Assembly (NCBI RefSeq): GCF_058153355.1
Contig: NZ_CM177019.1
Direction: 5' to 3' (one strand)
DNA: 64,000 bases
The notes under the pieces are model-generated. The model was not told the origin of the DNA. It ran no database searches and was given only the letters and a program-made list of their open reading frames with translations. Position numbers and translations under genes: made by a program. Positions 40,485-43,637 of this stretch are shown piece after piece (position 1 is the stretch's first letter; the number at the start of each line of letters is the position of its first letter).

Positions 40485-40590
40485 CACATACGCATCCGAA
40501 TAACGTCATAACATAGCCGCAAACATTTCGTTTGCGGTCATAGCGTGGGTGCCGCCTGGCAAGTGCTTATTTTCAGGGGTATTTTGTAAC

Positions 40591-41187
40591 ATGGCAGAAA
40601 AACAAACTGCGAAAAGGAACCGTCGCGAGGAAATACTTCAGTCTCTGGCGCTGATGCTGGAATCCAGCGATGGAAGCCAACGTATCACGACGGCAAAACT
40701 GGCCGCCTCTGTCGGCGTTTCCGAAGCGGCACTGTATCGCCACTTCCCCAGTAAGACCCGCATGTTCGATAGCCTGATTGAGTTTATCGAAGATAGCCTG
40801 ATTACTCGCATCAATCTGATTCTGAAAGATGAGAAAGACACCACAGCGCGCCTGCGTCTGATTGTGTTGCTGCTTCTCGGTTTTGGTGAGCGTAATCCTG
40901 GCCTGACCCGCATCCTCACTGGTCATGCACTAATGTTTGAACAGGATCGCCTGCAAGGGCGCATCAACCAGCTATTCGAGCGTATTGAAGCGCAGTTGCG
41001 TCAGGTATTGCGTGAAAAGAGAATGCGTGAGGGTGAAGGTTACACCACCGACGAAACCCTGCTGGCAAGCCAGATCCTGGCCTTCTGTGAAGGTATGCTG
41101 TCACGTTTTGTCCGCAGCGAATTTAAATACCGCCCGACGGATGATTTTGACGCCCGCTGGCCGCTAATTGCTGCACAGTTGCAGTAA
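40591..41187 (+). CDS. slmA: Nucleoid occlusion factor SlmA (TetR family)
   Basis: ORF track 40549..41187; start trimmed to [17 protein letters not shown]. Confidence 0.88.
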
Positions 41188-41191
41188 TATG

Positions 41192-41217
41192 ACGCCGGAT
41201 GACTTTTCATCCGGCGA
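41192..41217. terminator. Hairpin between convergent slmA and pyrE (bidirectional terminator candidate)
   Basis: gccggatga cttt tcatccggc perfect 9-bp stem. Confidence 0.5.
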
Positions 41218-41223
41218 GTTTCT

Positions 41224-41865
41224 TTAAACACCAAACTCTTCGCGATAGGCCTTAACCGCCGCCAGATGTTCCGCCATTTCCGGCTTCTCTTCAAGGTAAG
41301 CAATCAGGTCTTTCAGGGTGATGATAGAGATCACTTTGCAGTTGTAATCACGCTCAACTTCCTGAATCGCCGAAATCTCGCCGCGCCCGCGCTCCTGACG
41401 ATCGAGCGAAATTAACACACCAGCAAGCGTCGCGCCATTGGCCTGAATAATTTCCATCGACTCGCGGATCGCCGTTCCGGCGGTGATCACATCATCCACC
41501 AGCATTACGCGTCCTTGTAATGCGCTACCGACCAGATTGCCGCCTTCACCGTGATCTTTTGCTTCTTTGCGGTTAAAGCAGTACGGCAGGTCCAGGTCAT
41601 GATGCTCCGCCAGCGCTACAGCGGTAGTAGTGGCAATTGGGATCCCTTTGTAAGCAGGGCCAAACAGCAGATCGAACTCAATGCCGGAATCCACTAACGC
41701 TTCAGCGTAAAAACGGCCTAACAGTGCCAGATCGCGCCCGGTATTAAACAGCCCGGCGTTGAAGAAATAGGGGCTTTTGCGTCCGGACTTCAGCGTAAAC
41801 TCGCCAAACTTTAATACCTGCTTGCCAAGCGCAAATTCAATAAACTGGCGCTGATATGGTTTCAT
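41224..41865 (-). CDS. pyrE: Orotate phosphoribosyltransferase
   Basis: ORF track 41224..41880; start trimmed to [13 protein letters not shown]. Confidence 0.9.
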
Positions 41866-41894
41866 GCCTTCGCTCCTCATCTTACTTTTCTACA

Positions 41895-41926
41895 GACAAA
41901 AAAAAGGCGACTCATCAGTCGCCTTA
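41895..41926 (-). promoter_or_regulatory. rph-pyrE intercistronic attenuator (hairpin + U-tract)
   Basis: On the minus strand aaggcgactgatgagtcgcctt is followed by an 8-9 T run, between the rph stop and pyrE start. Confidence 0.7.
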
Positions 41927-41930
41927 AAAA

Positions 41931-42647
41931 TCAGTTTGCCAGCGCCGCCTTCTGCGTCGCTACAATGGATTCGATTCCCCCTCGGGCCAGCGCCAACAAG
42001 GTGAGTAGCTCTTCATGGGTAAACGGCTCGCCTTCTGCCGTCCCCTGCACTTCAATGATGCGCCCGTCTTCGGTCATCACCACGTTCATGTCCGTTTCAG
42101 CGGCAGAGTCTTCAACGTATTCCAGATCGCAAATTGCTTCGCCGTTAACAATACCGACAGAAACCGCGGCTACCATCCCTTTCATTGGATTAGTTTTCAG
42201 CTTGCCGTTTTCCACCAGCTTCTGTAACGCATCTGCCAGCGCCACGCAGGCACCCGTAATCGAAGCGGTACGCGTGCCACCATCAGCCTGAAGCACGTCG
42301 CAGTCCAGCGTAATGGTGAACTCACCCAGCGCTTTCAAATCTACTGCCGCGCGAAGTGCACGGGCGATCAGACGCTGGATTTCCATTGTGCGTCCACCCT
42401 GCTTACCTTTCGCTGCTTCACGAGCGTTACGGGTGTGGGTAGAACGTGGCAGCATGCCGTATTCTGCGGTGATCCAGCCCTGGCCCTGACCTTTCAGGAA
42501 GCGCGGCACGCCTTCTTCAATAGAGGCGGTACACAACACTTTGGTATCGCCAAATTCGACCAGCACCGAGCCTTCTGCATGTTTTGTATAGTTACGAGTC
42601 AGGGTAACGGGACGCACCTGATTATTGCTACGGCCTGCTGGACGCAT
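41931..42647 (-). CDS. rph: Ribonuclease PH (full-length reading frame; no K-12-type C-terminal frameshift evident)
   Basis: ORF track 41931..42671; start trimmed to [14 protein letters not shown]. Confidence 0.9.
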
Positions 42648-42773
42648 ATTGAAATCTCCGGCTTGAAACAAATGTGGCTGCGCATTATACGGACTTCCGG
42701 CGGTTATTCCTATCCTGACAAGGCATCGATGGCTATAATCCTTCCACCTCTCCTTTTATAAACAGGAACGTCT

Positions 42774-43637
42774 ATGATCCGCAGTATGACCGCCTACGCC
42801 CGGCGTGAAATCAAGGGTGAATGGGGGAGCGCAACCTGGGAAATGCGCTCGGTAAACCAGCGTTATCTGGAAACTTACTTTCGTCTGCCGGAGCAGTTCC
42901 GTAGCCTTGAACCTGTCGTTCGCGAGCGTATTCGTTCTCGCCTGACGCGCGGTAAAGTGGAATGTACCCTGCGTTATGAGCCAGATGTTAGCGCACAAGG
43001 TGAGCTGATCCTCAACGAAAAACTGGCTAAACAGCTGGTAACTGCCGCGAACTGGGTAAAAATGCAGAGTGACGAAGGGGAAATCAACCCGGTTGATATT
43101 CTCCGCTGGCCGGGCGTAATGGCAGCCCAGGAGCAGGATCTCGACGCGATTGCTGCTGAAATTCTCGCGGCGCTGGATGGTACGCTGGATGACTTTATCG
43201 TCGCGCGCGAAACCGAAGGTCAGGCGCTGAAAGCATTGATCGAGCAGCGTCTGGAAGGCGTTACCGCCGAAGTGGTCAAAGTCCGCGCCCATATGCCGGA
43301 AATCCTGCAATGGCAGCGTGAGCGTCTGGTCGCTAAGCTGGAAGATGCTCAGGTTCAGTTGGAGAACAACCGTCTGGAGCAGGAGTTGGTTCTGCTGGCA
43401 CAACGAATTGACGTTGCCGAAGAGTTGGACCGCCTCGAAGCGCATGTTAAAGAGACCTACAACATTCTGAAGAAAAAAGAAGCCGTTGGTCGTCGTCTGG
43501 ACTTTATGATGCAGGAGTTCAACCGCGAGTCAAACACCCTGGCCTCGAAGTCTATCAATGCCGAAGTGACAAACTCTGCCATCGAGCTGAAAGTGTTGAT
43601 CGAGCAGATGCGCGAGCAGATTCAGAACATTGAATAA
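42774..43637 (+). CDS. yicC: YicC-family stress-induced protein
   Basis: 287 aa; MIRSMTAYARREIKGEWGSATWE. Confidence 0.88.
   Translation: MIRSMTAYARREIKGEWGSATWEMRSVNQRYLETYFRLPEQFRSLEPVVRERIRSRLTRGKVECTLRYEPDVSAQGELILNEKLAKQLVTAANWVKMQSDEGEINPVDILRWPGVMAAQEQDLDAIAAEILAALDGTLDDFIVARETEGQALKALIEQRLEGVTAEVVKVRAHMPEILQWQRERLVAKLEDAQVQLENNRLEQELVLLAQRIDVAEELDRLEAHVKETYNILKKKEAVGRRLDFMMQEFNRESNTLASKSINAEVTNSAIELKVLIEQMREQIQNIE

What the first reader, a model, noticed from the sequence alone, without database searches (positions are those of the whole stretch)
41895..41926. pyrE attenuator in the rph-pyrE intercistronic region, with an intact rph frame
A GC-rich hairpin followed by a T-run on the transcribed (minus) strand lies between the rph stop and pyrE start, the architecture of UTP-sensitive attenuation. 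Unlike K-12 rph-1, the rph frame here is full length, so pyrE expression should not suffer the K-12 polarity defect.
Basis: partly seen in the sequence, partly recalled or inferred. Interest (0 to 1): 0.3.

Follow-up and report, generated by a model that had tools for sequence, protein, structure and literature searches.

The report
Known pyrE attenuator, intact rph
This is the long-known transcription stop signal between the rph and pyrE genes of Escherichia coli, which lets cells make more of a pyrimidine-synthesis enzyme when UTP runs low; here it sits behind a normal, full-length rph gene, as in almost all strains other than the laboratory K-12 line, so it is ordinary.

Summary
The observation and the interpretation both hold, but the feature is already known.

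**What is there (minus strand)**
- rph (42647-41931, 238 aa) ends at TGA 41933-41931.
- A UUUUU spacer follows.
- Next is a 9-bp stem with a 4-nt loop, AAGGCGACU-GAUG-AGUCGCCUU (41925-41904). Its free energy is -16.6 kcal/mol and its z-score is -5.7.
- A T8 run (41905-41898) follows the stem.
- Only 32 nt later comes the pyrE ATG (41865).

**Comparison with E. coli**
- The 83-nt junction is 100% identical to K-12 and is at least 99% identical in 4565 of 5424 complete E. coli genomes.
- rph carries GGGGG (41981-41977), whereas K-12 MG1655 has GGGG, the rph-1 -1 frameshift that gives a 228-aa product.
- The window's RNase PH is identical to the wild-type protein WP_001247089.1.
- The exact K-12 allele is found in only 167 of 5354 genomes, so an intact rph is the norm.

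**Comparison across species**
- In 116 of 117 enterobacterial species with an intact rph, the hairpin starts 2-7 nt after the rph stop.
- The spacer from the T-run to pyrE varies from 25 to 166 nt.
- This pattern fits the published mechanism, in which a ribosome reaching the rph stop codon masks the terminator when low UTP slows RNA polymerase.

UTP dependence itself could not be tested here. Novelty: already known. Interest: low.

The parts
41931..42647 (-). rph (RNase PH), intact, 238 aa, stop TGA at 41933-41931
   Evidence: ORF list. Protein 100% identical to WP_001247089.1 of strains VE-V11-M and BL21. Annotated as rph in 5424 E. coli genomes.
41977..41981 (-). G5 homopolymer in rph (codons Arg-Gly-Gly); this is the site of the K-12 rph-1 -1 frameshift, and all five Gs are present here
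   Evidence: Alignment with MG1655: GGGGG here against GGGG in K-12. A run of at least 5 G at this site occurs in 99 of 117 species with an intact rph.
41960..41962 (-). TAG that becomes the premature stop in K-12 rph-1; it is out of frame here and lies 34 nt upstream of the hairpin
   Evidence: the L001 peptide ends GESNPL then TAG.
41926..41930 (-). UUUUU spacer between the rph stop codon and the hairpin; T-rich in most of the species examined
   Evidence: intergenic sequences of 119 loci.
41904..41925 (-). Attenuator hairpin AAGGCGACU-GAUG-AGUCGCCUU (9 bp, 5 G-C, 4-nt loop)
   Evidence: It persists in the 181-nt context fold. The core GCGAC/GTCGC is invariant and the flanking pairs covary without breaks in 93 unique sequences.
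41898..41905 (-). T8 run (U-tract of the intrinsic terminator), overlapping the last two stem positions
   Evidence: The T-run is 6-9 nt in 114 of 116 species.
41873..41878 (-). pyrE Shine-Dalgarno GAGGAG, 7 nt before the ATG
   Evidence: Read from the sequence. GAGGAG or AGGAG is conserved in the intergenic sequences.
41224..41865 (-). pyrE (orotate phosphoribosyltransferase), 213 aa, ATG at 41865
   Evidence: One amino-acid difference (G14 against S14) from WP_000806177.1.
42029..42038 (-). Upstream copy of the 10-bp direct repeat GCAGAAGGCG; the second copy is at 41946-41955. Slippage between the copies gives the recurrent 82-bp rph-pyrE deletion in evolved K-12.
   Evidence: The deletion junction is seen in strain NBRC 3301. 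Described in PMC2784333.
41946..41955 (-). Downstream copy of the 10-bp direct repeat GCAGAAGGCG

Best explanation
This is the classical rph-pyrE intercistronic attenuator of Escherichia. It is a Rho-independent terminator placed 5 nt after the rph stop codon and 32 nt before the pyrE start. pyrE is transcribed by read-through from the rph promoter region. When UTP is plentiful, RNA polymerase runs ahead of the ribosome that is translating the end of rph. The hairpin then forms while the polymerase sits on the U-tract, and transcription stops. When UTP is scarce, the polymerase slows on U-rich stretches and the leading ribosome catches up. A ribosome sitting at or near the rph stop codon covers roughly the next 9-12 nt, which includes the first G-C pairs of the 5' arm. 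The terminator cannot form and transcription continues into pyrE. Because rph is in frame to its natural stop here, this coupling is intact. In K-12 rph-1, ribosomes instead release 34 nt upstream of the hairpin, and termination is constitutively high. Shown here: the anatomy, identity with the characterised element, the intact frame, and the evolutionary constraint on stop-to-hairpin distance. Inferred: UTP dependence, ribosome occlusion, and normal pyrE expression.
For: The anatomy and the stability of the hairpin are shown. The 83-nt junction is 100% identical to E. coli including K-12, and 4565 of 5424 genomes match at 99% or more. The rph frame is intact, with G5 against the G4 of K-12 and a protein identical to wild type. 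None of the 39 mismatches to the closest E. coli falls in the 65-nt intergenic region. Among 116 of 117 species with an intact rph, the hairpin begins 2-7 nt after the stop. The G-C core begins 5-8 nt after the stop in 108 of them. The downstream spacer ranges from 25 to 166 nt. This is the pattern expected if proximity of the stop codon to the hairpin, rather than of the hairpin to pyrE, is what selection holds. Compensatory changes occur in the flanking stem pairs and none is broken. No competing antiterminator structure appears in the 181-nt fold. No promoter-like site lies between the T-run and pyrE. Published work supports the mechanism. [quoted passage not shown] All 26 selected pyrE/rph mutations shifted the rph stop codon (PMC4166923). 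pyrBI and pyrE are controlled by UTP through pausing and attenuation (PMC7818426).
Against: Nothing in the sequence contradicts this explanation. UTP-dependent read-through, pausing sites and ribosome occlusion were not and cannot be measured with these tools. The primary papers (Bonekamp 1984, Jensen 1993, Andersen 1992) were not held in the library, so the mechanism rests on secondary citations and on my own knowledge. The window is only about 96.7% identical to most E. coli over 24 kb, so the strain background differs from those studied, although the regulatory region itself is identical. The promoter scan is a crude consensus test.
Confidence: 0.93

Rival explanations
1. The hairpin is simply the constitutive terminator of a monocistronic rph transcript, and pyrE is expressed from its own promoter, so the hairpin has no regulatory role.
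For: It has every feature of an ordinary intrinsic terminator. Such terminators are common after genes.
Against: Only 32 nt separate the T-run from the pyrE ATG, and 6 of them are the Shine-Dalgarno sequence, so there is no room for a promoter downstream of the terminator. No promoter-like site was found there. Selection holds the hairpin 2-7 nt from the stop codon in 116 species, which a plain terminator does not require. Mutations that shift the rph stop codon change pyrE-dependent growth (PMC4166923; PMC2784333).
Confidence: 0.03
2. The hairpin acts mainly as an RNA 3'-end stabiliser or processing signal for rph mRNA, rather than as a decision point for transcription.
For: Terminated transcripts would end in a stable stem-loop. 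Processing of the dicistronic rph-pyrE mRNA has been reported (Andersen et al. 1992, cited in PMC10087573).
Against: The conserved T-run (6-9 T in 114 of 116 species) is a termination feature and is not needed for stability. This role is compatible with attenuation and secondary to it, not an alternative.
Confidence: 0.03
3. The inverted repeat is a chance feature in an AT-rich intergenic spacer.
For: The simple terminator scan found no more sites in the 2-kb region than in shuffles: 2 sites against a shuffle mean of 2.0.
Against: The fold has z = -5.7 and 0 of 200 shuffles fold as well. The hairpin is present at the same position in 116 of 117 species, with compensatory changes.
Confidence: 0.01

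Closest known systems
E. coli rph-pyrE (orfE-pyrE) intercistronic attenuator (Poulsen/Bonekamp/Jensen 1983-1993)
   Same: Same locus, same gene order (yicC | rph-pyrE | slmA-dut), and a 100% identical 83-nt junction comprising the stop codon, UUUUU spacer, hairpin, T8 run, spacer and pyrE start.
   Different: Nothing differs in the element itself. The flanking coding sequence carries about 2.6% mostly synonymous differences from the nearest complete E. coli genome.
K-12 rph-1 allele (MG1655, W3110)
   Same: Identical attenuator and intergenic sequence.
   Different: K-12 lacks one G of the G5 run. Its rph ends 10 codons early at a TAG 34 nt upstream of the hairpin and gives a 228-aa product. 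The window has the full 238-aa frame.
pyrBI leader attenuator of E. coli
   Same: Same logic: a UTP-sensitive polymerase rate, a coupled ribosome that physically blocks a terminator hairpin, and no alternative antiterminator RNA (own knowledge; PMC7818426; for the absence of a competing fold here).
   Different: pyrBI uses a dedicated short leader peptide and additionally uses reiterative transcription at the promoter. pyrE uses the 3' end of a full-length upstream enzyme gene.
PyrR-dependent pyr attenuation (Bacillus and other Firmicutes; Rfam PyrR binding site)
   Same: It is also transcription attenuation that responds to pyrimidine nucleotides.
   Different: It is mediated by a protein that binds an anti-antiterminator RNA. 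No Rfam family matched here, even at E <= 1; the only hit on the hairpin was a sub-threshold chance match to RyhB.

Membership tests
rph-pyrE translation-coupled UTP-sensitive attenuator (Enterobacteriaceae) | Lies between a co-oriented rph stop and the pyrE start | tested here: met
   rph 42647-41931 and pyrE 41865-41224 are both on the minus strand, with the hairpin at 41925-41904.
rph-pyrE translation-coupled UTP-sensitive attenuator (Enterobacteriaceae) | G+C-rich hairpin immediately followed by a U-run (intrinsic terminator) | tested here: met
   9 bp with 5 G-C pairs, then T8. Free energy -16.6 kcal/mol, z = -5.7.
rph-pyrE translation-coupled UTP-sensitive attenuator (Enterobacteriaceae) | The rph stop codon is close enough for a terminating ribosome to cover the 5' arm | tested here: met
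   5 nt from TGA to the stem and 7 nt to the first G-C pair. The distance is 2-7 nt in 116 species. The ribosome reach of about 9-12 nt past the stop codon comes from general knowledge.
rph-pyrE translation-coupled UTP-sensitive attenuator (Enterobacteriaceae) | Sequence identity with the experimentally characterised E. coli element | tested here: met
   100% over 83 nt against K-12 RV308 and other strains. All four sequences are identical from upstream of the rph stop through the pyrE start (columns 103-242 of the alignment).
rph-pyrE translation-coupled UTP-sensitive attenuator (Enterobacteriaceae) | pyrE has no promoter of its own downstream of the terminator | tested here: inconclusive
   The spacer is only 32 nt and the consensus scan finds no promoter-like site. 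The scan is crude and no transcript data are available.
rph-pyrE translation-coupled UTP-sensitive attenuator (Enterobacteriaceae) | No alternative antiterminator RNA structure; the ribosome itself is the antiterminator | tested here: met
   The 181-nt context fold keeps the terminator hairpin in both the MFE and the centroid structure. The surrounding fold is no better than shuffles, z = -1.1.
rph-pyrE translation-coupled UTP-sensitive attenuator (Enterobacteriaceae) | Read-through rises when the UTP (and GTP) pool falls | not testable with these tools
   This needs expression or in vitro transcription measurements. It is known for the identical E. coli sequence only from the literature.
K-12 rph-1 allele | A -1 frameshift in the G5 run, giving a 228-aa RNase PH that ends GESNPL | tested here: not met
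   The window has GGGGG and a 238-aa product. The window is rph+.
PyrR-binding RNA attenuator | Match to the Rfam PyrR binding-site model | tested here: not met
   No such hit at E <= 1 in 40500-43500.

The most novel reading that the evidence does not exclude
The G5-G8 homopolymer in the last 15 codons of rph might act as a recurrent slippage site that toggles pyrE attenuation. A run of at least 5 G is kept in 99 of 117 species with an intact rph, even though synonymous codons could break it. A -1 slip moves the rph stop 30 nt away from the hairpin and lowers pyrE. The same G5-to-G4 frameshift, giving the same ...ARGESNPL* end, is seen independently in K-12 and in the complete genome of Kluyvera genomosp. 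3 YDC799.
Probability: 0.05. Interest if true: 0.3.

Novelty: already known. Interest (0 to 1): 0.06.

Why it matters
It matters little as a discovery, because the element is a long-studied example of attenuation by transcription-translation coupling. There are two practical points. First, this genome is rph+, so the pyrimidine limitation of K-12 laboratory strains should not apply to it. Second, the cross-species survey done here gives a clean comparative signature of the ribosome-occlusion mechanism. The stop-to-hairpin distance is held at 2-7 nt, while the hairpin-to-pyrE distance drifts from 25 to 166 nt.

Tried and rejected
- **Rfam.** A search of 40500-43500 at E <= 1 found no curated family for this attenuator. 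The only match on the hairpin was a sub-threshold RyhB hit (24.5 bits against a gathering score of 55), which I take to be chance.
- **Primary papers and reviews.** Jensen 1993, Bonekamp 1984 and 1985, Turnbough & Switzer 2008 and Turnbough 2019 are not held in the library. The mechanism is therefore cited through secondary open-access papers.
- **PMC3071312 and PMC13192712.** Neither contained anything useful on the attenuator.
- **RNAalifold on a MAFFT alignment of 91 unique junctions.** MAFFT misaligned the variants with a short loop (GGGCGAC-GTTG-GTCGCCC), so the consensus was weak at -2.0 kcal/mol with 6 pairs. I replaced it with a count anchored on the invariant GCGAC/GTCGC core.
- **Terminator consensus scan as a significance test.** It is uninformative, with 2 sites found against 2.0 expected. 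I used the fold z-score and conservation instead.
- **Own promoter for pyrE.** I considered this and rejected it because there is no room and no site.
- **Alternative antiterminator fold.** I considered this and rejected it.

Full report
**Observation**

On the minus strand the window encodes rph (42647-41931, 238 aa, stop TGA at 41933-41931) and pyrE (ATG at 41865, ending at 41224). They are separated by 65 nt:

UUUUU-AAGGCGACU-GAUG-AGUCGCCUU-UUUUUU-GUCUGUAGAAAAGUAAGAUGAGGAGCGAAGGC

- The terminator scan reports the site with 9 pairs, 5 of them G-C, and a 4-nt loop. That scan finds as many sites in shuffled sequence, so it carries no statistical weight.
- The fold does carry weight: -16.6 kcal/mol against -5.6 ± 1.9 for shuffles, z = -5.7, with 0 of 200 shuffles as stable.

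**Identity of the locus**

A 1.5-kb query covering both genes matches 5424 of 5426 complete E. coli genomes once each. The match is always on the chromosome and is annotated rph and pyrE. The neighbours are yicC on one side and slmA-dut on the other.

The 83 nt from the end of rph through the pyrE ATG are 100% identical to many E. coli strains, including a K-12 strain. They are at least 99% identical in 4565 of 5424 genomes. The element is therefore, base for base, the one studied experimentally in E. coli.

**The rph frame**

I aligned the window with MG1655, BL21 and strain VE-V11-M. The window has GGGGG (41981-41977) where MG1655 has GGGG. No other indel falls between rph codon 190 and the pyrE start.

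- The MG1655 product is 228 aa and ends ...ARGESNPL.
- The window's product is 238 aa, ends ...[18 protein letters not shown], and is 100% identical to wild-type WP_001247089.1.

That is the usual state. The exact K-12 60-mer around the frameshift occurs in only 167 of 5354 genomes.

**Comparative evidence for the mechanism**

A degenerate DNA pattern for the pyrE N-terminus pulled 120 loci from species-representative genomes of Enterobacteriaceae and Budviciaceae. Of these, 115 had enough upstream sequence to analyse. The E. coli references and the window were analysed alongside them, giving 119 loci in all.

| Feature | Result across species with an intact rph |
|---|---|
| G+C-rich hairpin with a T-run after the rph stop | present in 116 of 117; the exception is Budvicia diplopodorum, which has no T-run |
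| Distance from stop codon to stem | 2-7 nt, median 4 |
| Distance from stop codon to G-C core | 5-8 nt in 108 of 116 |
| Stem length | 7-12 bp |
| T-run length | 6-9 in 114 of 116 |
| Hairpin free energy | -10 to -20 kcal/mol |
| Distance from T-run to pyrE ATG | 25-166 nt, through insertions |

Selection has therefore held the hairpin against the stop codon, not against pyrE. This is what a ribosome-occlusion mechanism predicts.

I then counted base pairs anchored on the stem core in 93 unique sequences:

- The five core pairs, GCGAC/GTCGC, are essentially invariant, so they are uninformative.
- The next pair outward is G-C in 82, A-T in 7 and G-T in 4.
- The pair beyond that is A-T in 73, G-C in 18 and G-T in 2. 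Neither of these two pairs is ever broken.
- The apical pair is T-A in 54, G-C in 5, C-G in 3 and T-G in 4.

Within the window, none of the 39 differences from the closest E. coli falls in the intergenic region; 16 are in rph and 22 in pyrE.

**Mechanism**

The parts shown here are these:

- An intrinsic terminator lies 5 nt after a translated stop codon.
- There is no room for a promoter, and no promoter-like site, in the 32 nt before pyrE.
- No competing antiterminator fold appears in the 181-nt context.

The parts inferred from the literature on the identical sequence and from general knowledge are these:

- At high UTP the polymerase outruns the ribosome, the hairpin forms over the U-tract, and transcription ends.
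- At low UTP the polymerase slows and the ribosome follows closely. When the ribosome reaches the rph stop it covers roughly the next 9-12 nt. That includes AAGG(C) of the 5' arm and leaves too short a stem to terminate, so pyrE is transcribed.
- In K-12 rph-1 the ribosome leaves at a TAG (41962-41960 in window coordinates) that lies 34 nt upstream of the stem. Termination is therefore high regardless of UTP.

The open-access literature agrees:

- The 1-bp deletion lowers OPRTase, and moving the stop codon back toward the attenuator restores regulation (PMC2784333).
- Every one of 26 selected pyrE/rph mutations shifted the rph stop codon (PMC4166923).
- pyrBI and pyrE respond to UTP through pausing and attenuation (PMC7818426).
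- The deletion or an intergenic C-to-T change fixes first in minimal-medium evolution (PMC6941894).

**Rivals**

- A plain rph terminator with an independent pyrE promoter is unlikely. There is no space or site for a promoter, the stop-to-hairpin distance is constrained, and the genetics points the other way.
- A purely RNA-stabilising hairpin does not explain the conserved U-tract.
- Chance is excluded by the conservation data.

**Comparison with known systems and novelty**

This is a member of the rph-pyrE attenuator family, and in fact the same sequence as the characterised element. Every feature that can be tested from sequence is met. UTP responsiveness cannot be tested here.

It works like the pyrBI attenuator but uses the 3' end of a real upstream gene in place of a leader peptide. 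It is unrelated to PyrR RNA switches, and Rfam has no family that matches it.

The finding is correct but already known, and an intact rph is the norm. Interest is low.

**Limits**

No expression data are available and the primary papers were not readable. The ribosome footprint figure comes from general knowledge.

Noticed in passing
L071 (Kluyvera genomosp. 3 YDC799, CP022114.1), rph 3' end: This complete genome carries the same G5-to-G4 -1 frameshift as K-12 rph-1. It gives the identical ...ARGESNPL* ending and a stop 30 nt upstream of the normal one. It is either an independent natural rph-1-like mutation or a homopolymer sequencing error. A run of at least 5 G at this site is kept in 99 of 117 species with an intact rph.
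   Followed up: partly
L124 3040-3760 (E. coli 23CRST050, NZ_AP045825.1); corresponds to window ~41898: An IS200/IS605-family element of about 0.7 kb is inserted directly after the attenuator T-run, separating the attenuator from pyrE. The places-versus-genomes counts imply 17 E. coli genomes in which the 83-nt junction matches as two places. Only this one was inspected. The effect on pyrE expression is unknown.
   Followed up: partly
window 42029-42038 and 41946-41955 (minus strand); L125 (E. coli NBRC 3301): The 10-bp direct repeat GCAGAAGGCG that mediates the recurrent 82-bp rph-pyrE deletion of evolved K-12 is present in the window, with 83-bp spacing here because of the extra G. The K-12 stock NBRC 3301 already carries that deletion in its deposited genome.
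   Followed up: yes
window 30000-54000 and 41200-42700: The window is unusually divergent for E. coli. It is about 96.7% identical to most complete genomes over 24 kb, and 98.4-98.5% to three of them (N96 from a Tibetan pig, 2020CK-00188, EC42405). No genome exceeds 97.4% over rph-pyrE. It is still closer to E. coli than to E. albertii (93.5%) or to Escherichia sp. MOD1-EC7003 (95.2%) and E1V33 (94.7%). It probably comes from a deep-branching E. coli or cryptic-clade lineage.
   Followed up: partly
window 41193-41216: A 10-bp G+C-rich hairpin (CGCCGGATGA-CTTT-TCATCCGGCG) lies between the convergent pyrE and slmA genes. The scan calls it terminator-like on the plus strand, after slmA. It has no clear T-run on the pyrE side.
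   Followed up: no
H54 (E. coli O16:H48 PG20180173, mouse gut): A strain of the K-12 serotype (O16:H48) matches the K-12 rph-1 60-mer over 61 nt at 98.4% identity. That is, it has one extra base, which suggests a reversion of rph-1 to rph+ during gut colonisation. I did not inspect it further.
   Followed up: no
L024 (Budvicia diplopodorum), rph-pyrE intergenic: This is the only species of 117 in which the post-stop hairpin lacks a T-run. Its intergenic region is 164 nt. Attenuation may have been lost or replaced there.
   Followed up: no
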